NCBI GenBank assembly: GCA_030141605.1
Contig: JAQGDQ010000514.1
Location: 62,001-126,000, forward strand
Source: Tubiluchus corallicola
Taxonomy: Eukaryota; Animalia; Priapulida
Direction: 5' to 3'
Length of the DNA stretch: 64,000 nucleotides
Shown here one piece after another: positions 28,991 to 61,261 of this stretch (position 1 is its first letter; every line of letters starts with the position of its first letter). The translations under genes and the position numbers were made by a program. Under the pieces are notes generated by a model. It did no database searches, was not told where the DNA came from, and saw nothing but the letters and a program-made list of their open reading frames with translations.

Positions 28991-29019
28991 TGTGGCAAAT
29001 GTGTATCGTGCAGCTCTTG

Positions 29020-30505: not shown

Positions 30506-30509
30506 TTGT

Positions 30510-34061: not shown

Positions 34062-34118
<57 letters not shown>

Positions 34119-34121
<3 letters not shown>

Positions 34122-38600: not shown

Positions 38601-38773
38601 GGACGTATTAAAGGAAACGTTTCATTGCCAACCATGCATAATTGTTGCCATGCCAACCATGCATAAACGACTGCATAAACATAACATAAACATATACATA
38701 AACATAGAACTCCATACACAAAGACGCCTACAAAATATTGAATAGTATAGAATATAGGAACAATTAAACGAAC

Positions 38774-40072
38774 ATGTATAAGAGGATCATACCAATGATG
38801 TTTTTCATTTCTATGGTCAATGGAACGAAGGAAATGAGAAATGAAACGAGAGGAGAAAAAACTCCTACCCTGAGTGCATGCACTGCACTACCTACAATAC
38901 ATAGGCATTATACATGCCCAGTTAAGAGCTGTTATGGATCCATGGTTGTTGTGGACCCAACAGTGCCATGTATATACGTTCAGAACTGTAAACCAGGAGA
39001 GTATATGCACTATAATTGTACTTGTGGGAATAAGAAAGCTGATTACTGCACACATCAGAGTGCCAAATATTTTCAGGATATGACGTGCCAAACTCCTTAT
39101 GATGATTTAAATGGGATTGGAAATGACCCAACCATATGTTCAATTGGAAGTAAAAAACTCCAAGATTGTGAAGAGGAGAATAGAAGAGAAGAATCTATCC
39201 TGTATGTAAGTGATTTATGCATAAACATATGCATAAACATATCATCTTTAGCTACCGGGTCTTTACCAAACAATTTTCATCAGCATCACACTGACTCACA
39301 GTCACTAGTAAACACTTTAAACTGTCTTCCCTAATCAATGATGGTAATTCGATGAAAACCTTTTATTTTTCCATATGAATGCGAGTCGCTTGTACCTTAA
39401 TTAAAATTTCATCACAACAGATCCTTCCATAGTTATTTATTTATTGATATTTTTTACAGAGCTTGTACCTTGTGAGGAGAGTCTGGAAGGTTTTGACCTC
39501 AGCTGGGATTCGACTGAGCAGAACTCAGAAGCAGGTGTTTCTACAGTAACCAGTGAACCAGTAAGCGAATTCAAGTGGTGTATGGTGAGTACGAACAGCC
39601 AACGATGTTTTAGCACTTTGTCCATCTCATTTCTCGAGATGAAAATGTGTTAGACATTTTTAATTATCAAATACAGACATATATAAACATAAAATTCACA
39701 CTAATTTATGAAAGAATACATTACATTAACTATTTGGACAATTCATTATTCTTCTGGCTTTTCATAGTCTGCGTTTTATACAGAAGTGGATATGAAATAA
39801 TGGCACTCACTTTTATAGCATATGTTTACTTTATGTACCGATGTGACACATTCATGGGTATGGTGTTAGTATTTATAGGTTGGTCAATTAACACAACAAT
39901 GGTGACTATTGGCATCCTCATGATGTTAGGTATCACTAATCATTTAGTGGCAACAGTAAATGAAGCAATAGCTAGGGTGTACTACAAGAAAAGGACAAGA
40001 GGGTACTACAATAAGCATGATCTGGTATATATGATCATGATGCTCTTACTTCCTATGGAGATGCACAGGATC
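38774..40072 (+). pseudogene. Probable EVE: signal peptide plus Cys-rich domain plus multi-TM ORF, split by a 440-bp insert (second copy 47967-49265)
   Basis: MYKRIIPMMFFISMVNG leader, 11 Cys, then hydrophobic stretches; halves rejoin in frame at duplicated ATAAACAT. Confidence 0.45.
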
Positions 40073-41410
40073 CTTTCAACATTATGTTATTCGGCTCTCA
40101 CGTACTTATTGGATCTGTAGAAAAAGTGATTGATGGTGAATTAGAACTTAATACCATTCTCTACGACGCTTTTAGATCCGGCCCTCATGGAATTCTCCAC
40201 GCTATCTTTAGGACAGTTAAATTAATTTATAACATTTTATTTGGTGATAGCGACGAAATTCAACATAGCTCACAATGGTATCCTTATTTTAAACAAAAAT
40301 TGACTGATTTAATATCCAAAGGTAAATCAGGCTCACGTTCTGCCGTTGAATGGACCACCTGCTTTCTCCTACTAAAAGTGCTACCTAAAATTGCAAAATG
40401 TGGCTTTCATGTTTATGATTATATTATGGACTCTCACGACCAACATCAAGGGATAAAAGAATTTTTTAACTTTTTGGAAACTGAAGACAGCCGTGAAATG
40501 TTGCAGCGCTTTTTGAAACAAGGCACAGTAGGGCTTCTTTTTGATCCGGATGATTTTAAACAATGGCAAGAAGATAACAACATCGTAGGTCAAGTTCCAC
40601 ATTGTTCTGTAGGAATTTTGGGTAACATAATCGATTTATTTGAATCTTTTGAAACTAGTGTAGAGCAAATATTCTTCTCTCCAAAAATTCACAATGCTGT
40701 ATTGGATCGCGAACAAGCTAAGCAAGTTCCCAAATGCAAAAACCCCACCTCTCGTATTTCCGCTTTAAAATATGTTAGTTGTGCTTCTGTCCCTGTAATT
40801 GACCCTCTGGATTATCCTTCTGTCCCTTTTAATAGCGCCACTCCTATTCCTCCATGCGCTGATGAGTCTACTGCCACTACGTAAGCTGCCTTTAATAATG
40901 TAGAACAACTATGCTTAAAGAAACCTGAATTGGTGCGTAGTGGCCTCGAGAAGAAAAAATTAACTATATCACACAAAATTCTTTCTGGGTATAACATAAT
41001 GTCAAATTTAGATAAAAATTTCCCCTTCTTTAGAGATTTCGATGAAGAAGAAAGTGTAATTAAGCCCAAGTATGTAAAAGTCTTCGACGCCACGCCAGGC
41101 CGTGGCGGCACCACACAATACATATGGCAATCCACCCTTAATGCTGACATTCATTTCTATCAGGACCCTCAAGATAAATGGCCCATTGACATTCCTGTCA
41201 ACCTATACGGTTTGGCCGTATTGCTGTACGGGAAAAATGCATTTTTGGCCCAATACGGCTTACAAGAAAATCCATACGGCGAAAAGAAAAATATACGGCA
41301 AAATCAAAATGTTGCTCAGCGAAAATAATCGCATCGAATATTCCCTTTTCGATCGGTACTTTCATGCAGACGATCTTACTTCCGTTCAAACGTCGTCATT
41401 GCGCACACTC
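40070..41410 (+). pseudogene. Probable EVE: pesti-like/large-genome flavivirus polyprotein fragment with FtsJ-type MTase N-part (second copy 49262-50600)
   Basis: 1.3-kb nearly open frame with SGYNIMSNLD and VFDATPGRGGTTQY (SAM-binding-like); T/C-rich codon use like 42858 and 55331. Confidence 0.5.
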
Positions 41411-41548
41411 AGCTAATAATTTTTAACATCCGGTTAACCACTTCCGCTATTTCATTCGTGAGAAAAAACACGGCAAGCGAACGTGTTCCTCCGGCGAAAA
41501 AGCAAAAAACTGGAACTGGACGTCATTTAAAAGAATGGGAGAGCCAAA

Positions 41549-42365
41549 ATGGCTTATTATACCTTCTTAGTTATGCTTGCTCTCTCTACTTCCATTCATG
41601 GAACTATTGTAAGTGTGAACAGTATCATCCCTCAACTGTCTCAGGAGGCGATTTACAAGCACCAAGACGTTTTAGCGTCATATGGGATTATCATCACTGA
41701 TCCCAAGCCCATTGGGTATCAAGTATCCCAATCTTACAAGATAATAAGAGTAGAAATGTCCAAAGCATGGAACATTCACTACCAGCTCTTCAAGGATCCA
41801 GAAAATGACTACCCCTCCAAAGCCAACCATCGAGATAAAAGATTCCTAGGAATGATTGTAGCCGGTGCTGCGATGGCAGAAGCCACTGCAGCCTTAGCAT
41901 TGGGGGCAACCAACAGGGCCGAAATTAATGCCCTCAACAGGAAAATGAGTGAGTTAAAAAACAACCAAGATATGATGAACCACGAGCTGACTGTAGTAAA
42001 TAAGGAAGTTGGCATTTTAGGACATGACCTGGAAAAATTGGAACGACTTGTTGGTAATGTTGACCATAACGTCCACAAGCTTATGCAGGCCCATGCAAAA
42101 GATATGACTCAGCTCCATGAATATCTAAATTCAGTTAGGTATGGACATGGATTGAGATCTATAACATCGTCTAAGATAGATTCACTCCTCATAAGCCCGA
42201 CTCAATTTAATCTTCTCATGTCTAATCCCAACTGCAGTGTCCCTTTGTCCTATGGTGCAAGCAGAGCAATAGTAATCAAATCAGAACCGGAGAGGTTGTG
42301 GATGTTGGTTAATGTGAGAGAGATCATTCAATCACCAAGCAGAGTGCATGTCAAAACCAAAAATG
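41549..42365 (+). pseudogene. EVE: class I fusion (F) protein, N-terminal half, copy A
   Basis: Signal peptide, furin site RDKR, fusion peptide FLGMIVAGAAMAEATAALALG, heptad repeat; truncated at a hAT junction. Confidence 0.85.
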
Positions 42366-42675
42366 TTTTGTGGTGGAGCATACGCTGGATGGGTGAAAGC
42401 CTCGTCAGAAGGCTCCGACTACTCGTTTTGTGTTCCATGTAGGAAAAATGTGAAAGTGCGAGCGTCCGGGTTTTACGACCTGAAGAGCCATTTCTCATCA
42501 ACACGTGGACACAAGGAAAGTGTGGCGAAAACTAAAACTTTTCGGTCGATGGATGATCATTTCAAACCAGCGAAGGAACCTGTTGTTAGCTCTAATGCCA
42601 CAGCTGCAGAAATTTTATTTTGTCAGTTTGTGGCCGAACACAACTTGCCACCTTCCATTGCTGACCATTTCAGTT
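42363..42675 (+). mobile_element. hAT-type transposase N-terminal BED-like zinc finger fragment (5' part at 41470-41548; second set at 50655-50735 and 54836-55148)
   Basis: PPAKKQK...KEWES then GWVKASSEGSDYSFCVPC...DLKSHFSSTRGH...TAAEILFCQFVAEHNLPPSIADH. Confidence 0.7.
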
Positions 42676-42857
42676 CCAGTTTTTTTGTTCCAATTATTTT
42701 TTGTTGTTGTGTGGACTGATATGCGATCTCCTGACTGGTCTGTTTCTGTTGGCTCCCAGCAAATTAACACATTTTCAGATTCGGTAAGGTCCCGTGCTGT
42801 CTTATAAGGTTTAGCAAGACCCTATATAAGGGCAACGCTAATAACAGGTTGACAGGT

Positions 42858-43458
42858 ATGCATTGAACACGACTATCTTAAGAACATAGCTGACACTCAA
42901 ACTCTTTACCATCATGATAAATTTTCAAATGTCCTTGATAATTTTGATTTCGTGATCTGTGACTCTATCGATTTTCTCCACCTTCGGGCCATTTCTAGCA
43001 ACGATTATATTTCGAAGTGTGAAGCAAAAGTTAAAAATAAAGGCACCTTTTAGTTTAGTATTGGGTTAGAACAAATTAAAAACTTAAATATTTTAAAATT
43101 AAATTTACAAACACTACAAATTTCACATATCTCCTAACGTTAAAGCAAATCAAGTTTATATTTTCCTCCAATGTTCTGAAAAATTAGATAACAAAGAAGG
43201 TTTAGTTGCTTGGTCCGCTTGGTATCAATTCATACATTTTGTTGTTCGTTATCGCATGTACGCTGTAGAAAATGCTTTTAAACGTAAAATGAAACAATTG
43301 ACGTTAGCCCATCCTATTCTTTCTAAAGTTAAAGATAAGCCTTGCCACTACACAACCTTCTCCCCTACCCTAACGTCAGACCGCTTTGAAACCATGTTTG
43401 AATGTAAGCATAACAAGCTCAAAATTAACCATCGCCTTAACCGTATCGAAGCAATTTT
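42858..43458 (+). pseudogene. Probable EVE: pesti-like/LGF MTase C-part leading into RdRp (truncated copy of 55331-56475)
   Basis: FDFVICD motif; near-identical to 55331-55931. Confidence 0.5.
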
Positions 43459-43510
43459 GGGTCACTAAGCACTGAAATTGGCTATTTAAACGTTGCTGCT
43501 CCATTATGTA

Positions 43511-44796
43511 GTTACTATTTGAGCCACGTACACGTCTTTCTTTAGATATTTGGCAATAGTTTCATGAAAGTTACAACAATGGAGAACGGTGGGATGATGA
43601 CAGCCATATTAGTAAGTGTAATATACAGTTACCATTTGAGCCACGTACACGTCTTTCTTTAGATATTTGGCAATAGTTTCATGAAAGTTACATTCATTAC
43701 AATGGAGAACGGTGGGATGATGACAGCCATATTAGTAAGTGTAATATACAGTTACTATTTGAGCCACGTACACATCTTTCTTTAGATATTTGGCAATAGT
43801 TTCATGAAAGTTACATTCATTACAATGGAGAATGGTGGGATGATGACAGCCATATTAGTAAGTGTAATATACAGTTACTATTTGAGCCACGTACACGTCT
43901 TTCTTTAGATATTTGGCAATAGTTTCATGAAAGTTACATTCATTACAATGGAGAACGGTGGGATGATGACAGCCATATTAGTAAGTGTAATATACAGTTA
44001 CTATTTGAGCCACGTACACGTCTTTCTTTAGATATTTGGCAATAGTTTCATGAAAGTTACAACAATGGAGAACGGTGGGATGATGACAGCCATATTAGTA
44101 AGTGTAATATACAGTTGCTATTTGAGCCACGTACACGTCTTTCTTTAGATATTTGGCAATAGTTTCACAAAAGTTACATTCATTACAATGGAGAATGGTG
44201 GGATGATGACAGCCATATTAGTAAGTGTAATATACAGTTACTATTTGAGCCACGTACACGTCTTTCTTTAGATATTTGGCAATAGTTTCATGAAAGTTAC
44301 ATTCATTACAATATTAGTAAGTGTAATATACAGTTACTATTTGAGCCACGTACACGTCTTTCTTTAGATATTTGGCAATAGTTTCATGAAAGTTACAACA
44401 ATGGAGAATGGTGGGATGATGACAGCCATATTAGTAAGTGTAATATACAGTTGCTATTTGAGCCACGTACACGTCTTTCTTTAGATATTTGGCAATAGTT
44501 TCACGAAAGTTACATTCATTACAATGGAGAACGGTGGGATGATGACAGCCATATTAGTAAGTGTAATATACAGTTACTATTTGAGCCACGTACACGTCTT
44601 TCTTTAGATATTTGGCAATAGTTTCATGAAAGTTACAACAATGGAGAACGGTGGGATAATGACAGCCATATTAGTAAGTGTAATATACAGTTACTATTTG
44701 AGCCACGTACACGTCTTTCTTTAGATATTTGGCAATAGTTTCATGAAAGTTACAACAATGGAGAACGGTGGGATGATGACAGCCATATTAGTAAGT
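43511..44796 (+). repeat. Tandem array of the 123/117/96-bp unit, 11 copies
   Basis: Units start at 43511, 43628, 43751, 43874, 43997, 44114, 44237, 44333, 44450, 44573, 44690. Confidence 0.95.
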
Positions 44797-45377
44797 ATTT
44801 TCCGCTAGTTTGATGTGACCTCAGATTTAAGACCACCATTACCAAAGCTTATTTTAATTTCCACATAATAATCATAATAGTTGTACTCTTGATTTATGAG
44901 CACAATTAGCAAAGCTTATTTTAATTTCCGCATAATAACCATTAATATATTTATTTGTAAAAAAAACACTACGTTATTGGGACGTAATAACGAGATTAGG
45001 GCGATAAAAATCCCTTCTAATTGTAATTTAAGTAGGGGTCGCTCGCTTGCTATTTTTCAAATAAAAGAGTTGTTTCCGCGAATGAAAAAGACCATACGTG
45101 TTCGTTCGTTTGCTCAGTGGCGGCACCGTGGACGCTCCGAAATTTGGGGTAAGTGTAATTTTATTCTTTAGCGTGTTTTTAGTTTTATAATGACACTTTA
45201 TTGCTTTTTCAATAGCAAAGCAATAGACTTTAATTACATCATAATTCGTGTAAGTGAAATTCTTCTTTGCAATAACGTGTGCACACGCGAATTCCATGCT
45301 ATAACGTTTGAATAGCGTTAATTATTTTCTTACAGAATACGGCTTTATAAGAATCAACAAACACCGTCTTAATCATC

Positions 45378-46889
45378 ATGGACCCAGAACGCATTTTCAG
45401 GTGCCAGGTGGCAGTGAGAAGATTACGCATTGTCACCTGCGATATATGCGGGCGGGTCTGTCGTAGTATGAGAGCTATGCAGAGACACGTCACGATCGAT
45501 CATTATGGCCACGAAAGAAACTTTCTTTGCCACGTGTGTGGTCATACGGTCATGACGCAATACGGTCTAAGCTCTCATCTACTACGGAGACATCCAGCGA
45601 GACGACAGCGGCGACAACAGCAGCATCAAAATGGTGGCCGAGATGGCGGCGACGATGATGATGACGATGGGCCGTTTTGTGTGAGCAATGTGGGCTGCTG
45701 TTTCACACAATGGCAGCTTTAGAGAGGCACGCCGCACAACAGCAGCGTGGCGACCAAGATGGCGATGATGATGATGATGCTGATGAAGCTGCTGGTGGGC
45801 CGTTTTTGTGTGGCCAATGCGGCATGCTGTTCCACACAATGGCAGCTTTAGAGAGCCATGGCCCACAACAGCAGCAGCAGCATCAAAATGGTGGCCGAGA
45901 TGGCGGCGATGACGATGATGATGATGCTGATGCTGGTGGGCCGTTTTTGTGCAGCCAATGCGGCATGCTGTTCAACACATTGGCGGCTTTAGAGAGCCAC
46001 GTCACACAACAGCAGCAGCAACAAAATAGCGACGACATGGATGATGATGATGATGCTGATGCTGGTGGGTCGTTTTTGTGTGGGCAATGCGGCATGGTGT
46101 TCCACACATTGGCGGCTTTAGAGTGGCATGCCACACAACAGCAGCAGCAACAAAATGGTGGCTGTGACGACGACGGGCTGTTTTTGTGTGGGCAATGCGG
46201 CATGGTGTTCCACACATTGGCGGCTTTAGAGAGGCACGCCACACAACAGCAGCAGTAACAAAATGGCGCTCGAGATGGCGACGCCATGGATGATGATGAT
46301 GCTGATGCTGGTGGGTCGTTTTTGTGTGGGCAATGCGGCATGGCGTTCCACACATTGGCGGCTTTAGAGTGGCACGCCACACAACAGCAGCAGTAACAAA
46401 ATGGCGCTCGAGATGGTGACGCCATGGATGATGATGATGATGCTGATGCTGGTGGGTCGTTTTTGTGTGGGCAATGTGGCATGGCGTTCCACACATTGGC
46501 GGCTTTAGAGTGGCACGCCACACAACAGCAGCAGCAACAAAATGGTGGCTGTGACGACGACGGGCCGTTTTTGTGTGGGCAATGCGGCATGGTGTTCCAC
46601 ACATTGGCGGCTTTAGAGTGGCACGCCACACAACAGCAGCAGCAACAAAATGGTGGCTGTGACGACGACGGGCCGTTTTTGTGTGGGCAATGCGGCATGG
46701 CGTTCCACACATTGGCGGCTTTAGAGTGGCACGCCACACAACAGCAGCAGCAACAAAATGGTGGCTGTGACGACGACGGGCCGTTTTTGTGTGGGCAATG
46801 CGGCATGGCGTTCCACACATTGGCGGCTTTAGAGTGGCACGCCACACAACAGCAGCAGCAACAAAATGGTGGCTGTGACGACGACGGGC
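45378..46889 (+). pseudogene. Zinc-finger array with poly-Q/poly-D linkers, copy 2
   Basis: Same units as 36115-37696 with a different unit order. Confidence 0.8.
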
Positions 46890-47793
46890 CATATCTAATG
46901 GAAAGGCATGTCACAGGAAAGGTACTTGAGTTAGGTGGAGGCGCTGGAGGAGGAACCCAATGGTTGGTCACCCAGAAGAAAGTTAAAGAAGTGACCACTC
47001 TATGCTTTGATAGAGAGGGACATGGCCGCCATCGATTGGGGGAAGAGAGAACTAACGGCTATGAGAAAAGCCACCTCCATTATTTTTCGACGTCTGTCAA
47101 TTACATTTAATGTTTCAGCGGAAGTTGGATGGCAGGTCAATGCGGCCAGTTGCATTAGCGGTAAAACGTTTAAAGGTAAGCAGGAAATTTACACTATGTA
47201 GATTTTTTAGTTAGCAAATAGATAGGTATCAAATTAGCGATAAGATATTGAGGCAGCTGTTTTAACTGTTTCGTCGTTTTGAAGTTATTTATTTATGTTG
47301 CAACTATAGCCTGAGGGAAAATACGACTGGCTAGTGTCAGATATAGGTGAAACAAAAACTCAATTTGACTACCAAACCTTATATTCCCGTAGAAAGAGAG
47401 AAAACTTTGACCGGATATTAACAAAAGACAAACCAAAATTAATAGTCTATAAAGAGTTAAGCCCGGGTGATTACAAGCTTGAGGAGTTTGTGAACAAATG
47501 GGGCTTGCGTGCTGTTAAGTTGCCTTATACTAGGAACTCCGGCACGGAATTCTACTTAGTCAATTTTGGGGAAGGCATGGAATACAGAGAAATGGCTAGG
47601 GTGGCCACTGAGCTGATGACTCGGATGAGAGTTATGGGACCTCCTATTACAGTAATGGAGAGTGAGAAAGAAATCAAAGAGGAATATTATCACCAAAGTA
47701 AACCAGACCCAAACAGGAGGAATCCACTTAAAGCACCAGACTAGACACTAACCATAGAAAACCTCAAATTCAAGTATAATGTCAGACCTCCTA
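46890..47793 (+). pseudogene. EVE: flavivirus-like NS5 MTase, copy 2
   Basis: Same motifs as 37697-38600. Confidence 0.85.
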
Positions 47794-50733
47794 GGACGTA
47801 TTAAAGGAAACGTTTCATTGCCAACCATGCATAATTGTTGCCATGCCAACCATGCATAAACGACTGCATAAACATAACATAAACATATACATAAACATAG
47901 AACTCCATACACAAAGACGCCTACAAAATATTGAATAGTATAGAATATAGGAACAATTAAACGAACATGTATAAGAGGATCATACCAATGATGTTTTTCA
48001 TTTCTATGGTCAATGGAACGAAGGAAATGAGAAATGAAACGAGAGGAGAAAAAACTCCTACCCTGAGTGCATGCACTGCACTACCTACAATACATAGGCA
48101 TTATACATGCCCAGTTAAGAGCTGTTATGGATCCATGGTTGTTGTGGACCCAACAGTGCCATGTATATACGTTCAGAACTGTAAACCAGGAGAGTATATG
48201 CACTATAATTGTACTTGTGGGAATAAGAAAGCTGATTACTGCACACATCAGAGTGCCAAATATTTTCAGGATATGACGTGCCAAACTCCTTATGATGATT
48301 TAAATGGGATTGGAAATGACCCAACCATATGTTCAATTGGAAGTAAAAAACTCCAAGATTGTGAAGAGGAGAATAGAAGAGAAGAATCTATCCTGTATGT
48401 AAGTGATTTATGCATAAACATATGCATAAACATATCATCTTTAGCTACCGGGTCTTTACCAAACAATTTTCATCAGCATCACACTGACTCACAGTCACTA
48501 GTAAACACTTTAAACTGTCTTCCCTAATCAATGATGGTAATTCGATGAAAACCTTTTATTTTTCCATATGAATGCGAGTCGCTTGTACCTTAATTAAAAT
48601 TTCATCACAACAGATCCTTCCATAGTTATTTATTTATTGATATTTTTTACAGAGCTTGTACCTTGTGAGGAGAGTCTGGAAGGTTTTGACCTCAGCTGGG
48701 ATTCGACTGAGCAGAACTCAGAAGCAGGTGTTTCTACAGTAACCAGTGAACCAGTAAGCGAATTCAAGTGGTGTATGGTGAGTACGAACAGCCAACGATG
48801 TTTTAGCACTTTGTCCATCTCATTTCTCGAGATGAAAATGTGTTAGACATTTTTAATTATCAAATACAGACATATATAAACATAAAATTCACACTAATTT
48901 ATGAAAGAATACATTACATTAACTATTTGGACAATTCATTATTCTTCTGGCTTTTCATAGTCTGCGTTTTATACAGAAGTGGATATGAAATAATGGCACT
49001 CACTTTTATAGCATATGTTTACTTTATGTACCGATGTGACACATTCATGGGTATGGTGTTAGTATTCATAGGTTGGTCAATTAACACAACAATGGTGACT
49101 ATTGGCATCCTCATGATGTTAGGTATCACTAATCATTTAGTGGCAACAGTAAATGAAGCAATAGCTAGGGTGTACTACAAGAAAAGGACAAGAGGGTACT
49201 ACAATAAGCATGATCTGGTATATATGATCATGATGCTCTTACTTCCTATGGAGATGCACAGGATCCTTTCAACATTATGTTATTCGGCTCTCACGTACTT
49301 ATTGGATCTGTAGAAAAAGTGATTGATGGTGAATTAGAACTTAATACCATTCTCTACGACGCTTTTAGATCCGGCCCTCATGGAATTCTCCACGCTATCT
49401 TTAGGACAGTTAAATTAATTTATAACATTTTATTTGGTGATAGCGACGAAATTCAACATAGCTCACAATGGTATCCTTATTTTAAACAAAAATTGACTGA
49501 TTTAATATCCAAAGGTAAATCAGGCTCACGTTCTGCCGTTGAATGGACCACCTGCTTTCTCCTACTAAAAGTGCTACCTAAAATTGCAAAATGTGGCTTT
49601 CATGTTTATGATTATATTATGGACTCTCACGACCAACATCAAGGGATAAAAGAATTTTTTAACTTTTTGGAAACTGAAGACAGCCGTGAAATGTTGCAGC
49701 GCTTTTTGAAACAAGGCACAGTAGGGCTTCTTTTTGATCCGGATGATTTTAAACAATGGCAAGAAGATAACAACATCATAGGTCAAGTTCCACATTGTTC
49801 TGTAGGAATTTTGGGTAACATAATCGATTTATTTGAATCTTTTGAAACTAGTGTAGAGCAAATATTCTTCTCTCCAAAAATTCACAATGCTGTATTGGAT
49901 CGCGAACAAGCTAAGCAAGTTCCCAAATGCAAAAACCCCACCTCTCGTATTTCCGCTTTAAAATATGTTAGTTGTGCTTCTGTCCCTGTAATTGACCCTC
50001 TGGATTATCCTTCTGTCCCTTTTAATAGCGCCACTCCATTCCTCCATGCGCTGATGAGTCTACTGCCACTACGTAAGCTGCCTTTAATAATGTAGAACAA
50101 CTATGCTTAAAGACACCTGAATTGGTGCGTAGTGGCCTCGAGAAGAAAAATTTAACTATATCACACAAAATTCTTTCTGGGTACAACGTAATTTAGATAA
50201 AAATTTCCCGTTCTTTAGAGATTTCGATGAAGAAGAAAGTGTAATTAAGCCCAAGTATGTAAAAGTCTTCGACGCCACGCCAGGCCGTGGCGGCACCACA
50301 CAATACATATGGCAATCCACCCTTAATGCTGACATTCATTTCTATCAGGACCCTCAAGATAAATGGCCCATTGACATTCCTGTCAACCTATACGGTTTGG
50401 CCGTATTGCTGTACGGGAAAAATGCATTTTTGGCCCAATACGGCTTACAAGAAAATCCATACGGCGAAAAGAAAAATATACGGCAAAATCAAAATGTTGC
50501 TCAGCGAAAATAATCGCATCGAATATTCCCTTTTCGATCGGTACTTTCATGCAGACGATCTTACTTCCGTTCAAACGTCGTCATTGCGCACACTCAGCTA
50601 ATAATTTTTAACATCCGGTTAACCACTTCCGCTATTTCATTCGTGAGAAAAAACACGGCAAGCGAACGTGTTCCTCCAGCGAAAAAGCAAAAAACTGGAA
50701 CTGGACGTCATTTAAAAGAATGGGAGAGCCAAA

Positions 50734-52248
50734 ATGCTTATTATACCTTCTTAGTTATGCTTGCTCTCTCTACTTCCATTCATGGAACTATTGTAAGTGT
50801 GAACAGTATCATCCCTCAACTGTCTCAGGAGGCGATTTACAAGCACCAAGACGTTTTAGCGTCATATGGGATTATCATCACTGATCCCAAGCCCATTGGG
50901 TATCAAGTATCCCAATCTTACAAGATAATAAGAGTAGAAATGTCCAAAGCATGGAACATTCACTACCAGCTCTTCAATGATCCAGAAAATGACTACCCCT
51001 CCAAGGCCAACCATCGAGATAAAAGATTCCTAGGAATGATTGTAGCCGGTGCTGCGATGGCAGAAGCCACTGCAGCCTTAGCATTGGGGGCAACCAACAG
51101 GGCCGAAATTAATGCCCTCAACAGGAAAATGAGTGAGTTAAAAAACAACCAAGATATGATGAACCACGAGCTGACTGTAGTAAATAAGGAAGTTGGCATT
51201 TTAGGACATGACCTGGAAGAATTGGAACGACTTGTTGGTAATGTTGACCATAACGTCCACAAGCTTATGCAGGCCCATGCAAAAGATATGACTCAGCTCC
51301 ATGAATATCTAAATTCAGTTAGGTATGGACATGGATTGAGATCTATAACATCGTCTAAGATAGATCCACTCCTCATAAGCCCGACTCAATTTAATCTTCT
51401 CATGTCTAATCCCAACTGCAGTGTCCCTTTGTCCTATGGTGCAAGCAGAGCAATAGTAATCAAATCAGAACCGGAGAGGTTGTGGATGTTGGTTAATGTG
51501 AGAGAGATCATTCAATCACCAAGCAGAGTGCATGTCAAAACCAAAAATGGTCCCCATAGTTAAAGGGGGCACTTGGGTGATTCATGGGGCTCCATTTGAC
51601 ATGATTTTGGACCTCAAGAGTATTAAGATTATTCCCCCTGGGTCCTGCCAGGACTTCAACGTGATTGTATGCTCTGATGACCTAGAGACACAACCATTTG
51701 ACCAGTCTTTAAAGTATGAAAGATCTCCTGAAAATTGGGGTATTGTGACCTTAATGGGGGGTTGGATAGTCCAGAAGCAAGCCAGTTATCAACTTAGAAC
51801 GGTCTTCACTCATTCAGGGGCCTCTGAGAGGACAATACCCAAAAATTCCAGCCTTGTTTTAACGTGTAAGAAGATCCTAGAGTACCACTTACCTGGTTAC
51901 TTACTTCGATGCAGTGACACTCTGCATAGGCTGAAAAGCTGGATCCCAAGATTAGAAAGCCATAATTTGACAAGCTATACAGATGAGATCAATGTCCTAA
52001 TAAATAAGACTCATGCTTTACTCATCTCTCATCATGAAATTGAACCTCTCAGCTGGTATGAAGACTATTCATCTGCTAGAGACTGGTTATGGTTGATATC
52101 AGTAGTAACTTCTGTTGAGGTTAACCTGTTAATTATTTGGATTATATACAGACTGGTAAAGATTCGAGTTAAAAACCGCAAAATGATCCAGGGTGAAGAG
52201 GTAGAAATGCAAGAATACAACAGTAGAAGATCAGAAGATCAGCCCTAG
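50734..52248 (+). pseudogene. EVE: near full-length paramyxo/pneumo-like F protein (copy B)
   Basis: Signal peptide, RDKR/FLGMIVAG cleavage and fusion peptide, heptad repeat, Cys-containing core, TM (WLWLISVVTSVEVNLLIIWIIY) and tail; 1-nt loss just after the ATG and one frameshift near 51530. Confidence 0.85.
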
Positions 52249-52310
52249 CTACTCTTTAGAACATGGAACAATTCAGCTTGCTAGTCATATCCCCATTAAT
52301 CGCTTCACTT

Positions 52311-52340
52311 TTTATCTTGTAAAAAAATGAAGTCAAAATG
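52311..52340 (+). promoter_or_regulatory. Mononegavirales gene-end/gene-start junction (F to L)
   Basis: TTTATCTTGT-A7 (52321-52327), one T, then GAAGTCAAA-ATG. The same GAAGTCAAA-ATG precedes F at 54013-54024. Confidence 0.75.
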
Positions 52341-53132
52341 ACTTATGAGAGACACCTCAACTCACCTCTCAGCCTGGAATTTGAGAATGCTTTTATATTT
52401 GATATACATCACAAAACTCCAACAGAAGTAGCCAAAATTTGGGCTCTTGGACCTCCAGGAAAATGTCAATATCTGGATTACTTGAAAAAAGTTTCTCAGG
52501 AAATCAAGATCAGCCCTCCAGAACCTCTAGCGAGTTACCAGCACTCTAGGATGATGGAGAACTGCAATTCCTTTTTTTGGAAAAGAAAGAAGTCACCCAC
52601 TGAAGGAGAAGCCACCGACCAATCCAGGAGAGAACCTCCACAGAAGGAGGAATATGAAATCAAAGAGATTAAACTTGGGGACATGGCAAAACCCGCTACA
52701 GAGCTACAACATGCTGAGGAAACAATTGCGAGATATGCCAAGAGCTATCTGGCCGGCAAATATGAACATATTCCTCCACGACTTAGCATTGATATCAGTC
52801 TACTTCAAAGAAGACTGCTGCTAGAAAAGATCAGCAGCATTTTTGCCAACTCATCTGTAGCCAACAACAATCCGATTTTAATCAAAATTAATTCGAATCA
52901 TGTCTTCCACTTGTTGGGCCATTCTCTATTTGAACACCGCCGTGATAGTATAATTGTAACACATGTCAGTCATTTCACGGGGGGACTAGATGCAGCAATT
53001 TCTCGACTTACTGTCAAAATCTTACATGCTCTGCTAGATCAAGAAGATCAATCAGAGAAGCGCAATGTTATAGAAGAGTTCATAGAACTCATTCATAAGC
53101 ATATACTTGTTCCCATAAATCTCAGAAAATAA
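52338..53132 (+). pseudogene. EVE: Mononegavirales L polymerase N-terminus
   Basis: Starts MTYERHLNSPL (cf. conserved L N-terminal HL[D/N]SP[I/L]); directly downstream of F and the junction; 264-aa open frame. Confidence 0.72.
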
Positions 53133-53524
53133 AGCGGAGGCAAAGCGGTAACAAAAAATTCATCGTTCGTTTTTTTCAGTTCCTCGAGGCAGAGAAAAGT
53201 TTAAGTTTGTTATTTCATGTTTATTAAGTCCAAAGATTGTTCAGTAGCATCACTATCTAGTATTACATAAACTCTCTATCGCACTGCGAGTGTCATTTCC
53301 ACCGACATTATTTCCCATTCTGACGTTGTTTTTGGAAAGATTTCTTCAAGTATTGCTGTTGCAACTAGTAAATAATCAATAGACTGCAAACGAGTTGTGT
53401 GCGCCTCGCTGAATGAAGTAAGCGTCTTGCTGTTCATCCTTTAAAAAATCTACTCAAATTTATGTGTAGGCCTGGGGACAAGCGGTATGAATGTTGTAAG
53501 AATGATGTGTAAAAGTAATAATAT

Positions 53525-53861
53525 TGTTCTGCAGGGCTGTGATGAGATAGTGTAATACTGGCAGGGGAATACAGCAGACTGCTCAGGTGTGCGTGTGAAC
53601 GTGACTTTATCTAGCACATAGACTCTTATTCTGACCTTGTGTTAGTAGGAGCCACTAGTCACGTGCACACCTGAGCTTATAAAAAGGGTAGGTCTGCTGT
53701 AGATCCTTGTCAGTGGTCGTCTCATCTCAGCTCTGTTCACATTTCAGGCTTTGCTCTGTTCTATTCTGTTCGGTAAGCTATTTGGAATATTTTATAATAA
53801 ATTGTCATTTTGATTTTATTATTCATTGTGGTTTTGGTTTGGCATTGACTTAGTTGAGACA
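53525..53861 (+). mobile_element. LTR-like element, copy 3
   Basis: TGTTCTGCAGGGC...TTGAGACA with TATA, GGTAAG and AATAAA; more diverged from copies 1 and 2. Confidence 0.65.
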
Positions 53862-54021
53862 TGCCGCACGGTGTAGGCCGCGGTGCCATCCGTCCTGCCT
53901 CCGTTAAAAGCGGACAGCAGCCCAATATTTTAAGAAAGTTTTGTTTGCAGCAGAAATGTTATAGAAACTTTTTATTGTTTTTATACCTATCTATTGTCTT
54001 TTTTATATACAGGAAGTCAAA

Positions 54022-54838
54022 ATGGCTTATTATACCTTCTTAGTTATGCTTGCTCTCTCTACTTCCATTCATGGAACTATTGTAAGTGTGAACAGTATCA
54101 TCCCTCAACTGTCTCAGGAGGCGATTTACAAGCACCAAGACGTTTTAGCGTCATATGGGATTATCATCACTGATCCCAAGCCCATTGGGTATCAAGTATC
54201 CCAATCTTACAAGATAATAAGAGTAGAAATGTCCAAAGCATGGAACATTCACTACCAGCTCTTCAATGATCCAGAAAATGACTACCCCTCCAAGGCCAAC
54301 CATCGAGATAAAAGATTCCTAGGAATGATTGTAGCCGGTGCTGCGATGGCAGAAGCCACTGCAGCCTTAGCATTGGGGGCAACCAACAGGGCCGAAATTA
54401 ATGCCCTCAACAGGAAAATGAGTGAGTTAAAAAACAACCAAGATATGATGAACCACGAGCTGACTGTAGTAAATAAGGAAGTTGGCATTTTAGGACATGA
54501 CCTGGAAGAATTGGAACGACTTGTTGGTAATGTTGACCATAACGTCCACAAGCTTATGCAGGCCCATGCAAAAGATATGACTCAGCTCCATGAATATCTA
54601 AATTCAGTTAGGTATGGACATGGATTGAGATCTATAACATCGTCTAAGATAGATTCACTCCTCATAAGCCCGACTCAATTTAATCTTCTCATGTCTAATC
54701 CCAACTGCAGTGTCCCTTTGTCCTATGGTGCAAGCAGAGCAATAGTAATCAAATCAGAACCGGAGAGGTTGTGGATGTTGGTTAATGTGAGAGAGATCAT
54801 TCAATCACCAAGCAGAGTGCATGTCAAAACCAAAAATG
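54022..54838 (+). pseudogene. EVE: F protein N-terminal half, copy C, retaining the viral gene-start
   Basis: ORF 54022-54915; 54018-55931 duplicates 41546-43458. Confidence 0.85.
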
Positions 54839-55330
54839 TTTTGTGGTGGAGCATACGCTGGATGGGTGAAAGCCTCGTCAGAAGGCTCCGACTACTCGTT
54901 TTGTGTTCCATGTAGGAAAAATGTGAAAGTGCGAGCGTCCGGGTTTTACGACCTGAAGAGCCATTTCTCATCAACACGTGGACACAAGGAAAGTGTGGCG
55001 AAAACTAAAACTTTTCGGTCGATGGATGATCATTTCAAACCAGCGAAGGAACCTGTTGTTAGCTCTAATGCCACAGCTGCAGAAATTTTATTTTGTCAGT
55101 TTGTGGCCGAACACAACTTGCCACCTTCCATTGCTGACCATTTCAGTTCCAGTTTTTTTGTTCCAATTATTTTTTGTTGTTGTGTGGACTGATATGCGAT
55201 CTCCTGACTGGTCTGTTTCTGTTGGCTCCCAGCAAATTAACACATTTTCAGATTCGGTAAGGTCCCGTGCTGTCTTATAAGGTTTAGCAAGACCCTATAT
55301 AAGGGCAACGCTAATAACAGGTTGACAAGT

Positions 55331-56475
55331 ATGCATTGAACACGACTATCTTAAGAACATAGCTGACACTCAAACTCTTTACCATCATGATAAATTTTCA
55401 AATGTCCTTGATAATTTTGATTTCGTGATCTGTGACTCTATCGATTTTCTCCACCTTCGGGCCATTTCTAGCAACGATTATATTTCGAAGTGTGAAGCAA
55501 AAGTTAAAAATAAAGGCACCTTTTAGTTTAGTATTGGGTTAGAACAAATTAAAAACTTAAATATTTTAAAATTAAATTTACAAACACTACAAATTTCACA
55601 TATCTCCTAACGTTAAAGCAAATCAAGTTTATATTTTCCTCCAATGTTCTGAAAAATTAGATAACAAAGAAGGTTTAGTTGCTTGGTCCGCTTGGTATCA
55701 ATTCATACATTTTGTTGTTCGTTATCGCATGTACGCTGTAGAAAATGCTTTTAAACGTAAAATGAAACAATTGACGTTAGCCCATCCTATTCTTTCTAAA
55801 GTTAAAGATAAGCCTTGCCACTACACAACCTTCTCCCCTACCCTAACGTCAGACCGCTTTGAAACCATGTTTGAATGTAAGCATAACAAGCTCAAAAATA
55901 ACCATCGCCTTAACCGTATCGAAGCAATTTTGAACGATAATAAATTTTAGAAATCTGCTAGCAAACTCCAAAATTTAGAATATCTTAACGTAGAAGACGT
56001 TAAGAAAGGATCCCGATTATGCCCAAGAAAATTAAGTAATCAAATTGTAATAGCAAAATGGAACACCGAAAAATCAAAAGTATCTGATGATTCAGTTTTA
56101 GTAGCCGACTTTTTAGGAAATTTAGTTAAGAAAATTACCGGCGCTGATCCGTTTAACACCCCTGTAGTACAAGTATCTAAAAACGCAACCTTAGTTCATT
56201 CTGCTGTAAGAGACCGCTTAGACCATCCAAATAAGCAATTATCTGACGAACAAATTACTCAACTCTTAGACGCTGCAGAATACGTATGTATGCCTCCATC
56301 CCACCCTATCAAAATTGCAACCTGGGATGAATTAGGACATTTAATCAATAGACAAGGTGCTTCCGGAATGTTAGACGATTGTCAAGATTTAGGAACTCTT
56401 TACGACCGCCCTGGCACTCGCGAAGTTGTAGAACGTATAATTAACGATTTGCAAAAGTTCCAATTTTACCAAGGT
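55331..56475 (+). pseudogene. EVE: pestivirus-like/large-genome flavivirus NS5B RdRp N-terminal region
   Basis: TWDELGHLINRQGASGMLDDCQDLGTLYD...VVERIINDL parallels pestivirus NS5B WEQLEAGINRKGAAGFLE...LVEQLVRDL; upstream frame largely open. Confidence 0.7.
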
Positions 56476-58048
56476 TGACTAAGGGAGACATAGTGATTAG
56501 TCCAAGACTAAAAGTAGGATGGTTTACATATTATGTTGATTGTAGTTACCAGGGTAGAGTTGAGAGAGTAGAAGCAAACGGAATTGTGCGGGTTAAGTTT
56601 CCTACTACAGTACACGGAGACAGTGGGCAACCCATATACATGGAAACAGAAAGAGGAAACGTGTGTGTGGGTTGCATTGCATACAGTAGCAATTTGAATG
56701 GAGACATGGTAGAGGAAACGATAGCAACTGAAACTCACGGAATCTCAACTAAGGTAGAGCAGGGAAAGATACGAATTGTAACATCTTATTGTGGGAGTGG
56801 TAAAACTAGAGAAAAGATTCCATCTTGTTTGAAAAGTAGGTCTATTGGACAGAAAGCATACATACTAGCTCCTGACAGAGTAGTAGCACGTGAGAATTAC
56901 GAATCCTTGAAGAAAGTGCTAAAAGAGAAAATAGCATTGAGGACATCAGATGCTAATCCAGAGGAAAGAAAGATGATATATTTTTTGTTATGCAGTTGTC
57001 ATAATGAATGTTAAGACTTAGATTTAACAGAAATTTGTGGTATTTTAGGGAGGTGCTGCCATCTTTTGGCTGTAAAATTAATTTACCTATTTCTTAAACT
57101 GTTTACTGTACAATCTATTTACATACCATTTACTGGGTTTCAACTAAAGTTAATGAGCTGTAACAGGAGTCCTGGCTATTGTATGTTGGTCAGTAGTAGT
57201 TCAGGTCTCATAGTCTGCTGGTGAATAATGTAATTGGTGAATTTCATAATGTAGTTTGTCAAGGTATGTTGCTTTAAATTATATTTTGTGGTTTTTTTAT
57301 TTTGCTAAACTGAGAGGTTAGTGCTTTAATTTTTGTTATAGTGTGTTAAACTTAAGTGAATTATTAAGCTAAACTTCCCTAAATGTTGCTTTTGCTTTTA
57401 TTTCAGACGGCAATTTATGTTGAAACCTACCCCCCCCCCTCTACACAGGCTTCACTTCTTCATTTTTTTGACAATAAAGAAATCAACCTACCTGTATCAA
57501 AGTGTTCATCATTTTTATTGGATTACAACATGCAGACAGACAAACTGAACAAAACAGCCAGGACCCTGTAAAATCGAGGTAATGGCCCATGCAACAGCCT
57601 TAAATCGATATAGGAAGGAGAAATTGAACTTTAGAAGCTCATTGACCATCATAGATGATGGGCATTATAATAACGAAGAAACCGTGGCATTAGTATCCAT
57701 AGTCATGTACAGTGCAACATCAAAGGACATGATGGCCACAGCCACAAACCAGCCAGTGGAGCGCATGGAGATGAATGAAAGGGAAGTTAAAAACTATGTT
57801 AACGAGCAAGTAGAAGCCAAGATATTGTGGATAGTACCAGGCAACGTGAATAGTAAAGCAAAAGAAGTGAAAGGTTGGTACAAGGACAAAATAATAGTGT
57901 TGGATAAGCACAATATAGAAAACCTGAACCAAGCTAAAAATCTTGCGACAGGCATGGGGATAAGCACCAGCATATGTGAGTGTGGTGCTAACTTAAATCC
58001 TGACATCGTCATTGTACTCAAACTAATTACCCTCCAGTAACAGAAGGT

Positions 58049-58200
58049 ATTGAGACTGGAAGATGGGCAAGGATAAAAAGAGAGGACAGGCTATGCTCCT
58101 GTTCTGGCTTAAACGTACAAACAGAAGAGCATGTTATCTGTTTTTGTCCACTTACGAATCACCTTCGTGAACATAACACTGAACTGAGCTTCAACGAATT
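58049..58200 (+). mobile_element. LINE ORF2 C-terminal CCHC fragment
   Basis: IETGRWARIKREDRLCSCSGLNVQTEEHVICFCP. Confidence 0.75.
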
Positions 58201-59078
58201 TTTTAAGACGAATTTTTTAAGCTTTATTTACGAACAATGTTTTCTTGTGCTTCAAAATATGACATTGCCTAAGTGTACTACAATCAATGTCCGCCATATT
58301 CCAATAAAATATTGTAGCGTTTTATATGTCATTTCTATTGAAAAAAATAAAAAAGCTATTTTACAAATTTGCATTAAATTCTGTAGTTCTAGACCCTACT
58401 AAACACAAACATTAAGTAAACCTAATTTGGTAATTTTACTAATTTATACTATGTAACACATTATTTATACTATGTAACACGTTCTATCAAATTATAAGAT
58501 TGTCATTAAGTAAACTAAATGTTCAAGGTGATCAGTTCAATCAAAATGATACAAAATGATGTATTTACTTACATCGTACGTCTCCATAAAGCAAATCGAG
58601 TATTTACCAATATATCTGACAAATTATCACTATCATACTGTGAAAACTACTATTAAAGAAGCCTGTTAACGTCTGCCAACTAACTCGCTTGCCCAGGTAA
58701 AAACAGATCTGTACAGGTGAGTGATCGTGGTCACGTGACCAACGAGATACTTAGCGAAATTCACTACAGTCATTGATACTCAAACTAATTACACTCCAGT
58801 AACAGAAGGTGATGTAGATGTGATTTTGCAGGAAAGACCCACTAGTAGGGCTAGCCAGGTTCAGAGAATAGGTCGAGGAGGCAGAAGGAAGAAAGCCACT
58901 TATGTAACGATTGGGCCAAGAACTAGACCACAGACGAGATTTTTCCCATCAGATACAGCCATGTGGGATGGCATAGCCATCTTACTGGCTGAAGACACAG
59001 AGGCTACACTACTGCAATATGTATGGTGAGGAAGAATGCACATTGCATAGTGAGCGGAGTTTAGAATTCAAGAGATTA

Positions 59079-59656
59079 CCGTATATACTCGCATATAAGC
59101 CGAATTTAGAACTATAAGATACAATACTGAAATCAGGGGGTCGGCTTATATGCGCATGAAACAAAATGAACACAAGGACAGACACTAATGCCAATTTTCC
59201 AGCCACACATTTTCATCGCTATCTGACTCTTTATTTGGTTGTGTGTCACCAGTGGTGTATTGGAGGGGGATCGTGGGGGATCGCCGTCCATCCACTTTTT
59301 TTTAGAAAAAATATAACAGAAAACTTTTTTATAACAGAAATGTTATAATTTTTTGTGAATAAATAGAAAACAAAATAGTTTCTTCTTTATTCATATCAAA
59401 ATGTATAATTTCTTCTATTTCTTCTAGTATGTAACATAAAAGTAAGCATTTTACATCTTTATAGTAAAAAATTTCTATGAACCAAAAATACCCAATTAAC
59501 AAAATGTGACAAAAAGGGGGTTTGATTGGGTATGGAGTAAAATTAGACAAGTTGATGGTCGGCTTATATACGGGTTTTTGCAAAAACTTGCCATTTTAAA
59601 GCAGTTTTAGGGGGTCGGCTTATATGCGATGTAGGCCTATATGCGAGTATATACGG
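59079..59656. mobile_element. Tc1/pogo-type MITE inserted in the NS3 EVE
   Basis: TIRs CCGTATATACTCGCATATA / TATATGCGAGTATATACGG with TA duplication; removal restores the frame FKRL-GVKHP. Confidence 0.85.
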
Positions 59657-60436
59657 TAGGCGTGAAACACCCAGTGACTGAAGATATGAAAGTGCCATAC
59701 TCAATGGCTGTGTTGTTGAGTGAGAACGGTTTGCCACGGATATCAGACAATGTGCCAAACAGGAAGACGCCAACAGCAATTCTGTAATCAATGTCCAAGA
59801 AAAGGGGTTGCATTCGATTGTAGAATGCATGTGAATAAGCATGCAATGTTGGTGCAGTTGGTGGAATTTGGATTCAATTCTTGGAGTGTGGTGACGATGT
59901 TGGCAATAATAACAATGATATCAAGCACTCTCTATTATAAAATCATAACATCAACTCATGGTTGGCAAAGGACAGTAGACCTTATTAAATGGTTATGGAG
60001 ATATGCTATAGTATTCACGACTTTCTACATGGTCACTATGCACCAGGATTTACTAGCTGGATTGAATTTTGCAGTACTATTAAAGCTTAGTATGAACTTA
60101 TATGACATTATAGTCGAAATACGAGCCGAAAGGAATGTGAAACACTCCTGGTGGGACGCGATGGTTGCAATGATATACACAGGAACCCTGTTAATAGCTT
60201 TGCGAGGGGACCAGTTCATAACTTTTGTAACCCGAAAGATGGGAGTTGAAGGAGTGCAACATGTACGAAATATTGGATGGCGTTATCAGGTAACAGATTA
60301 TTTATCTGTGATACAAAGCCATCTTATTTACGTGGTGCTCGACACATCATCCATAGGAAAGTTATTCGGTTATGTATATTCCACTAAGATTCGAGAGAAA
60401 ACAAATGAAAAGGGCTTTGACGGTCCAACAATCAAG

Positions 60437-61030
60437 GGACGTATTAAAGGAAACATTTCATTGCCAACCATGCATAACCGTTGCCATGCCTACCATGCAA
60501 AAACGACTGTTTACCGTTTCAATACGGTGATATTGAAGAAATTGAAAAATTTTTGAATATCGGCGTAACTTCATGTACTATATCATCTTTAGCTACCGGG
60601 TCTTTACCAAACAATTTTCATCAGCATCACACTGACTCACAGTCACTAGTAAACACTTTAAACTGTCTTCCCTAATCAATGATGGTAATTCGATGAAAAC
60701 CTTTTATTTTTCCATATGAATGCGAGTCGCTTGTACCTTAATTAAAATTTCATCACAACAGATTCTTCCATAATTATTTATTCATTGATATTTTTTTACA
60801 GAGCATGTACCTTGTGAGGAGAGTCCGGAAGGTTTTGACCTCAGCTGGGATTCGACTGAGCAGAACTCAGAAGCAGGTGTTTCTACAGTAACCAGTGAAT
60901 CAGTATCAGTAAGCGAATTCAAGTGGTGTATGGTGAGTACGAACAGCCAACAATGTTTTAGCACTTTGTGCATCTCATTTCTCGAGATGAAAATGTGTTA
61001 GACATTTTTTAATTATCAAATACAGACACA
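60437..61030 (+). repeat. Recurrent non-viral module (split copies at 38601-38673 + 39239-39679 and 47794-47866 + 48432-48872)
   Basis: GGACGTATTAAAGGAAAC...ATCATCTTTAGCTACCGGG...CAAATACAGACA shared by three loci. Confidence 0.85.
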
Positions 61031-61261
61031 TACAAATAATTGGAACTATTAAGAAAAGAAAGTTTATCTATATACCCTGATAAGCCTTCTACTAATGTAC
61101 AACTGAGTTCAATTCCTATAAGTTCATTTTCAAACACCTAGTTATTTGTTACTGTATCAATTTCGTTTGATCAGGTCTGCTTATTCATTACCTTTTTGAC
61201 TTCTGTTAACTATTCAGTTAGCGCATAATAGGCTCTGTCCACCACTTGCATCAACATTGGT

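What the first reader, a model, noticed from the sequence alone, without database searches (positions are those of the whole stretch)
38601..61030. The same non-viral module joins two different flavivirus fragments at the same nucleotide and is braided with viral sequence
Seen: GGACGTATTAAAGGAAAC begins directly after NS5-like sequence at 38601 and after NS4-like sequence at 60437. At 60437-61030 the module is continuous. At 38601-39679 the order is virus, module part 1, Cys-rich ORF, module part 2, then the same ORF resuming at duplicated ATAAACAT. Inference: back-and-forth template switching between two RNAs, with a fixed module end acting as a preferred capture point.
Basis: partly seen in the sequence, partly recalled or inferred. 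Interest (0 to 1): 0.7.

Follow-up and report, generated by a model that had tools for sequence, protein, structure and literature searches.

The report
Virus-host patchwork with DNA-repair scars
In an animal genome, pieces of flavivirus-like RNA viruses are interleaved with a piece of a host repeat gene that appears to keep its introns, and short stuttered fillers at the joints suggest the braid was likely stitched by error-prone DNA repair rather than by copying between two RNAs.

Summary
The sequence observation is largely real. The 18-nt start occurs at 38601, 60437 and a missed third place, 47794, inside a 6.7-kb duplication. Short-read contigs from two samples bridge the first three copy-1 joints; a separate contig bridges the fourth. 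The module is a likely internal piece of a dispersed host repeat gene: it has an intron-exon-intron layout, and paralogs keep the exon's reading frame. Its first ~140 nt (in copy 1) appear only in these virus-linked copies. ATAAACAT is not a simple target duplication: 6 of 6 occurrences sit at the three inner joints, as stuttered fillers that echo the end of part 1. Four other joints with both parents known show 2-6 nt microhomology (P about 1e-4). 'Same nucleotide' is only half shown: NS5 homology ends at 38602, but the virus boundary at 60437 cannot be placed independently. 'Same ORF resuming' is unproven. Best reading (0.55): one module origin, rebuilt at DNA level by polymerase-theta-type end joining that captured viral cDNA. 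Reverse-transcriptase template switching stays possible (0.25), because all pieces face the same way. It is a known kind of viral-fragment cluster with unusually readable joints.

The parts
37700..38602 (+). Flavi-like NS5 methyltransferase and linker fragment, broken by a frameshift and a stop; fused at its 5' end to C2H2 zinc-finger repeats
   Evidence: 33-65% identity to flavi-like polyproteins P0004, P0007, P0010; alignment to P0004 ends at 38602
38601..38673 (+). Module part 1, copy 1; carries an internal 25-nt imperfect duplication
38674..38707 (.). Filler 1: stuttered ATAAAC-type units echoing the last 15 nt of part 1
   Evidence: D1, D3; top local-repeat spot of the cluster outside minisatellites
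38708..39216 (+). Segment A: intronless Cys-rich ORF (ATG 38774, signal-peptide-like start); likely virus-derived, gene not assigned
   Evidence: no hit; codon usage closest to the flavi-like pieces and CpG o/e 0.26; no second context seen in contigs
39217..39240 (.). Filler 2: two tandem 12-nt units that begin with the 10 nt found at 38659-38668 in part 1
39239..39687 (+). Module part 2, copy 1: weak donor 39344, acceptor 39458-39459, open exon 39460-39584, donor 39585, intron
   Evidence: paralog contigs keep the exon frame (table 7)
39680..39692 (.). Filler 3 or homeologous joint holding one ATAAACAT
39692..40120 (+). Segment B: multi-membrane ORF, weakly NS2A-NS2B-like
   Evidence: residues 3-124 align to the region before the NS3 protease in P0049 (4 of 500 shuffles as high) and P0004 (17 of 500); no support from P0007, P0010 or a four-sequence profile
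39313..39807 (.). 495 nt missing in a second allele or copy, with 6-nt microhomology; not in the window itself
   Evidence: table 5 (X1, X2, X3)
44905..51549 (+). Duplicate of 35618-42365, holding module copy 2 (47794-48880); no difference from copy 1 between 37913 and 39873
56457..59101 (+). Flavi-like NS3 protease-helicase in three pieces (56457-57011, 57549-58048, 58769-59101) split by high-copy repeats
   Evidence: Flavi_DEAD E 7e-8
59607..60436 (+). Hydrophobic ORF in NS4 position (assigned by order only)
60437..60509 (+). Module part 1, copy 3
60510..60579 (+). 70-nt module middle, present only in copy 3; part of an open frame 60478-60672
   Evidence: (joint 38673-39239)
60580..61036 (+). 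Module part 2, copy 3 (exon 60802-60932, 6 nt longer than in copy 1); runs on into a high-copy repeat

Best explanation
The module is likely an internal, intron-bearing piece of a dispersed host repeat gene that entered this cluster of virus fragments once, and the braid at 38601-39690 was likely built at the DNA level by microhomology-primed repair synthesis of the polymerase-theta type. Shown: the order of pieces, the fillers, the microhomologies at other joints, the duplication and the deletion allele. Inferred steps: (1) viral RNA was reverse-transcribed into loose cDNA pieces; (2) the module became joined to an NS3-NS4 piece (copy 3 type); (3) a copy of that module was broken, lost 70 nt, and took in segment A, the polymerase re-priming several times on the end of part 1 and leaving the ATAAAC stutters; its outer ends were joined to an NS5 piece (through 2-9 nt of shared bases) and to segment B; (4) the finished unit was later duplicated (44905-51549), exchanged sequence with copy 3, and lost 495 nt in some copies. 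The shared start is then a breakpoint at or near the first virus-module joint, not a reusable capture site.
For: Unspliced template: canonical acceptor and donor bound an open exon of 125/131 nt; a paralog contig keeps 5 of 6 residues before the donor region, 4 through different codons (read by eye table 7, one contig in X1; two X2 contigs keep 3 of 6). Part 1 seems mid-frame: frames 60357-60527 and 60478-60672 are offset by the 25-nt internal duplication; an open run of 62 codons starts at 1.8% of host codons. Single origin: depth over the first 19 nt of part 1 equals the two known contigs only (717.3 = 666.2 + 172.2 x 19/64 in X1; same in X2), while part 2 has diverged paralogs from 39308 on. 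Fillers: 6 of 6 ATAAACAT within 30 nt of the three joints, 0.01 expected; A is flanked by a 29-nt 86% direct repeat that starts in part 1. [quoted passage not shown] Four other joints with both parents known overlap by 3, 4, 2 and 6 nt against a random mean of 0.72, P 1.2e-4. DNA-level change is ongoing: deletion allele in three runs; 0 differences in 184 nt against 15 in 338 between module copies, P 0.002.
Against: All pieces face one way: 28 of 35 stop-to-stop ORFs of 100 aa or more are on + (P 5e-4), which repair capture does not predict and copy-choice does (bioRxiv 10.1101/127498, passages). NS5, A and B show no second context in the contigs, so chromosomal donors would be lost or the donors were loose cDNA. 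The second break lies within about 30 nt of the first joint if upstream sequence at 60350-60436 is viral; random breakage makes that unlikely (my estimate, a few percent). Filler 1 is 34 nt, above the usual 25. Eight other joints checked have no such filler. Microhomology also fits reverse-transcriptase switching. The four joints were picked because both parents were visible. Contig filters can hide copies, and 26 loose-end rows were not shown. The splice sites are predicted, with no RNA run to test them.
Confidence: 0.55

Rival explanations
1. Reverse transcriptase switched between viral RNA and an unspliced module RNA with a fixed 5' end (start site or slicer cut), twice independently.
For: One polarity for all pieces. 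Viral pieces are out of genome order. LTR-like and gag-knuckle-like pieces lie in the cluster (28572-29000; recognised from memory). Virus-retrotransposon hybrid cDNA is documented in mosquito cells (PMC6797480, passages). It explains the shared start directly.
Against: Predicted introns are retained. No source locus with part 1 was seen. Both copies share the same frame-breaking 25-nt duplication and 184 identical bases. The partner is not an LTR-element sequence by any test here. Iterated fillers are a described repair signature.
Confidence: 0.25
2. A rolling-circle or Pack-type DNA transposon gathered host and viral-DNA fragments in one orientation, using filler-DNA repair.
For: Same orientation, retained introns, tandem units and minisatellites at 24122, 29219, 34765 and 61261. 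Capture features are recalled; only a search listing was seen.
Against: No termini or Rep-helicase found; the units are low-copy in contigs.
Confidence: 0.08
3. The shared start is an exon start: upstream viral sequence was spliced onto the module exon in cluster transcripts, which were then retrocopied.
For: The module frame starts in phase 0 one base into the shared block, and both upstream sequences then end in G.
Against: Downstream predicted introns are kept; relatives suggest the NS5 codon after the joint does not start a donor site.
Confidence: 0.05
4. The start is the left end of a Kolobok/T2-type DNA transposon inserted at TTAA.
For: TTAA followed by AGGAA at 38608 and 60444 matches a terminus recalled from memory.
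Against: Seven further bases upstream of TTAA are shared; no opposite end in the window; part 1 is not multi-copy; the motif lies inside an apparent reading frame.
Confidence: 0.03
5. The module is a conserved untranslated end shared by segments of a jingmenvirus-like virus, or the braid is an assembly error.
For: Five of 17 hits were 811-866 aa, the size recalled for jingmenvirus NS3 proteins.
Against: Both joints fall inside viral coding regions; the better hits include unsegmented-type polyproteins that carry NS3 and NS5; part 2 has host paralogs; joints are bridged in two samples; no match in viral contigs.
Confidence: 0.03

Closest known systems
Non-retroviral endogenous viral element clusters in Aedes piRNA clusters (bioRxiv 10.1101/127498; PMC5497376; PMC6797480; passages seen)
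   Same: Tens of kilobases of fragments from several RNA viruses mixed with transposon pieces in one orientation, with duplications and variation between individuals.
   Different: The partner here is an intron-bearing host repeat piece, not an LTR-element sequence; joints carry stuttered fillers; piRNA output is untested; the host was not identified.
Synthesis-dependent MMEJ / polymerase-theta end joining (PMC2943611; PMC12426944; passages seen)
   Same: Fillers made of overlapping copies of nearby sequence; 2-6 nt microhomology; capture of foreign DNA.
   Different: One filler is 34 nt, and the same seed recurs at three joints spread over 1 kb; enzyme dependence is untested.
FoSTeS/MMBIR complex insertions (PMC5120786; passages seen)
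   Same: Iterative template switches with microhomology and templated insertions of hundreds of bases.
   Different: Donors here include virus-derived DNA with no second chromosomal copy seen, and no inverted segments occur.
Unclassified flavi-like viruses P0004, P0007, P0010 (unnamed metagenomic proteins)
   Same: NS3 and NS5 pieces align at about 30-37% identity (65% over one 54-aa stretch), in flavivirus order.
   Different: Too distant to place NS4, segment A or the exact viral boundaries.

Membership tests
nrEVE cluster (Aedes piRNA-cluster type) | Fragments of non-retroviral RNA viruses in host chromosomal DNA | tested here: met
   NS5, NS3 next to spliced host genes at 1-22400; bridged in DNA contigs
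nrEVE cluster (Aedes piRNA-cluster type) | Several unrelated viruses in one locus | tested here: met
   flavi-like pieces plus a pestivirus-like polymerase piece, E 2e-7; fusion-protein-like piece weak, E 6e-4
nrEVE cluster (Aedes piRNA-cluster type) | One orientation of viral and transposon pieces | tested here: met
   28 of 35 long ORFs on +; no minus-strand ORF with a credible Pfam hit among 74 scanned on both strands
nrEVE cluster (Aedes piRNA-cluster type) | Antisense piRNA production | not testable with these tools
   no RNA holder listed
Polymerase-theta / SD-MMEJ joint | Insertion templated from sequence next to the break, in overlapping copies | tested here: met
   caveat: part of the motif could be native to the virus
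Polymerase-theta / SD-MMEJ joint | Short microhomology above chance | tested here: met
   3, 4, 2, 6 nt at 4 of 4 other joints with both parents known; the NS5 joint itself is 2-9 nt, undetermined
Polymerase-theta / SD-MMEJ joint | Dependence on polymerase theta | not testable with these tools
   needs a mutant or inhibitor experiment
Reverse-transcriptase copy-choice chimera | Same polarity of partners | tested here: met
Reverse-transcriptase copy-choice chimera | Host partner copied from processed RNA (introns lost) | tested here: not met
   predicted donor and acceptor sites and intron sequence retained; splicing itself is not shown
Reverse-transcriptase copy-choice chimera | Partner is an LTR-element transcript, unit bounded by LTRs | tested here: inconclusive
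   LTR-like high-copy repeat at 28572, 34115, 53521 (label recalled), none abutting the module
Kolobok/T2 transposon end | Copies diverge at TTAA, have an inverted opposite end and are dispersed (features recalled) | tested here: not met
Helitron capture | Helitron termini and Rep-helicase | not tested
   no whole genome held; element ends cannot be set from one window

The most novel reading that the evidence does not exclude
The module end is a reusable entry point: one fixed host end (a cut DNA end or a sliced RNA end) onto which fresh viral cDNA from an ongoing infection is stitched again and again by polymerase theta, building an oriented archive of virus fragments, loosely like spacer acquisition at a CRISPR leader. 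The in-register 495-nt deletion could additionally mark a kept virus-host membrane protein.
Probability: 0.1. Interest if true: 0.75.

Novelty: new variant of a known kind. Interest (0 to 1): 0.38.

Why it matters
How RNA-virus fragments enter animal germlines is usually put down to retrotransposon copy-choice, with little junction-level evidence. This locus keeps readable joints that point to a second step, repair synthesis that stitches viral cDNA to host DNA. Three full-text searches listed no paper whose title or abstract start describes templated fillers at joints of animal RNA-virus insertions; the library lacks most subscription papers and I saw listings only. If the pattern is general it makes the integration step testable by counting joint types across genomes. 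As it stands it is one old event with both donors missing.

Tried and rejected
No whole genome is held, so copies could not be tabulated genome-wide; contigs of three DNA runs stood in. No RNA holder listed and nothing laid from X6: no evidence on expression. Run X5 laid almost nothing. Segment A: no hit in Pfam, PDB sequences, PHROGs, ESM Atlas, the protein collection at 102-326 aa, or profiles of prM, E and NS1 built from two or three relatives. A by-eye likeness to the prM region of P0004 failed its control: 1-2 of 2000 shuffles, but 185-529 of 2000 once the hand-picked ends were fixed. The single-sequence fold was unusable, pLDDT 36, so no fold search was run. Module peptides: no hit in Pfam, protein collection or Atlas; the PHD-finger-like reading of its first frame is recalled, not confirmed. 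Module DNA patterns: 0 matches in metagenome contigs and viral contigs. NS5 piece: no hit among 253-2000 aa proteins. NS3 piece: no related viral contig. NS4 profile from four polyproteins hit only the helicase end. Composition could not place the boundary at 60437. Rfam: 0 matches at 23900-64000. Four look-ups of earlier findings returned nothing. Rejected: transposon end, segmented-virus UTR, assembly artefact. The host species was not identified. No supplements were read.
Full report
Setting. The window is AT-rich animal-type DNA. Its first 23 kb hold exons that resemble a cationic amino-acid transporter and an acyl-CoA-binding ankyrin protein (names recalled). From about 23.9 to 61.2 kb lies a patchwork of duplicated units, minisatellites, transposon pieces and virus-derived reading frames. 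Identified by homology: flavi-like NS3 (Flavi_DEAD, E 7e-8), NS5 methyltransferase, a pestivirus-like polymerase piece at 55951-56457 and a weak fusion-glycoprotein match. No whole genome is held.

The observation. The 18-nt start occurs three times: 38601, 47794 and 60437. The copy at 47794 is part of a recent 6.7-kb duplication, 21 differing columns in about 4.7 kb of non-repeat sequence, so it is not independent. Copy 3 reads part 1 (73 nt), 70 nt, part 2 (457 nt). Copy 1 reads NS5, part 1, 565 nt, part 2, segment B. Contigs bridge these joints without differences in runs X1 and X2 (one sample) and, for copy 1, in X3 (another sample and study). The best holder may be the assembly's own sample, so X3 is the independent support.

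Is it the same nucleotide? Two aligned copies always start at the same base, so the claim needs each viral boundary placed on its own. For copy 1 this holds: polyprotein P0004 aligns through the NS5 linker to 38602, two bases into the shared block. Relatives do not settle whether 2 or up to 9 shared bases are viral. For copy 3 no relative aligns near 60437 and composition is uninformative. The module's frame upstream of 60437 has no cysteine for 27 codons, so I infer that the boundary is within a few tens of bases. That leaves a real but smaller coincidence.

What the module is. Part 2 has a T-rich acceptor at 39458-39459, an open exon of 125 nt (131 in copy 3) and a GTGAGT donor at 39585. Other genomic contigs match from 39308 on, most densely around the donor (depth 7235 against 666 in X1; depth is no copy number). 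One paralog keeps 5 of 6 residues before the shared stretch, 4 through other codons (table 7, by eye). In copy 3 two open frames, offset by the 25-nt internal duplication of part 1, run through part 1, the 70 nt and the start of part 2. So the module is likely a dead internal piece of a multi-exon repeat gene; a PHD-finger likeness is recalled and unconfirmed. Part 1 was seen only in the virus-linked contigs: depth over its first 19 bases is the sum of those two contigs in X1 and X2, and X3 shows only the copy-1 type. Filters can hide contigs. A transposon end at TTAA is rejected.

The joints. ATAAACAT occurs 13 times on the + strand of the window, 12 of them in the two duplicate units. In one unit 6 of 6 lie within 30 nt of the three inner joints, 0.01 expected. 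Segment A is flanked by a 29-nt, 86% direct repeat that begins inside part 1. Fillers 1 and 2 rank first and among the top three local-repeat spots of the cluster outside the excluded minisatellites; 8 other joints checked have none. This matches complex insertions made of overlapping copies of nearby sequence in synthesis-dependent end joining (PMC2943611, passages). The inserted piece then looks like A in the module, not part 2 in a viral gene. B aligns weakly along its length to the NS2A-NS2B region of one relative (4 of 500 shuffles); A has codon usage like the flavi-like pieces but no assignable homolog.

DNA-level turnover. Three joints in the window and one in contigs have both parents visible; they overlap by 3, 4, 2 and 6 nt, against a random mean of 0.72 (P 1.2e-4). 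The fourth is a 495-nt deletion through the module, present in X1, X2 and X3. Between copies 1 and 3, 184 nt are identical while 338 nt carry 15 substitutions (P 0.002), which suggests conversion or a mosaic.

Against this reading. Long ORFs in the non-repeat parts of the cluster are strongly one-sided, 28 on + and 7 on -, whereas at 62 aa the count is 51 to 51. In Aedes, shared polarity of viral inserts and LTR elements was read as copy-choice, and large one-directional clusters were described (bioRxiv 10.1101/127498, passages); hybrids of viral and retrotransposon cDNA were sequenced (PMC6797480, passages); duplication and ectopic recombination after integration were also proposed (PMC5497376, passages). 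Polarity could come from the copying step or from later selection; I cannot separate them. NS5, A and B have no second context in the contigs, so their donors were loose cDNA or are lost.

Verdict. A real, inherited virus-host mosaic in a known kind of cluster. Template switching is likely, but more likely during DNA repair (0.55) than between two RNAs (0.25). A reusable capture end is not shown (about 0.1). Flavivirid insertions in many animal groups are already catalogued (PMC9752770, passages). What is unusual is the readable filler at three joints. Interest 0.38.

Noticed in passing
window 36330-37900: C2H2 zinc-finger repeat array runs in frame into the flavi-like NS5 methyltransferase piece; the array differs in unit number between the two duplicates.
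   Followed up: partly
window 55342-56457: Second flavivirid: pestivirus-like polymerase piece (E 2e-7) joined directly to the NS3 protease piece; ORF 40021-40884 has similar codon usage.
   Followed up: partly
window 41542-42365, 50727-52248, 54015-54838: Class I fusion-protein-like gene in three copies; two are cut at the same base and joined to a piece that resembles a hAT/BED transposase (recalled), one continues to a membrane anchor.
   Followed up: no
window 58005-58048 and 58766-58810: About 45 nt of NS3 are duplicated either side of a 720-nt insert that starts with a LINE-like C-terminal piece (recalled).
   Followed up: partly
window 39313-39807 (contigs of X1, X2, X3): The deletion is a multiple of three and both sides share a frame, so those copies would carry a longer chimeric virus-host reading frame; no expression data.
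   Followed up: partly
window 28572-28904, 34115-34447, 53521-53858: High-copy LTR-like repeat; in two places cut just short of its end and followed by a zinc-knuckle ORF and a 33-nt minisatellite.
   Followed up: no
window 25539-25883 and 30515-30859; 29600-30511: Two 78% identical glycoprotein-like pieces and a piece with a weak match to a negative-strand virus capping methyltransferase (E 0.1).
   Followed up: no
L004 3-4259: The 11.8-kb flavi-like virus has its structural genes in a separate overlapping frame and an extra Cys-rich region between the envelope-like and NS1-like parts.
   Followed up: no
P0003, P0008, P0049 clusters: Flavi-like NS2-NS3 fragments on contigs of 300-460 kb, likely endogenous copies of related viruses in other animals.
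   Followed up: no
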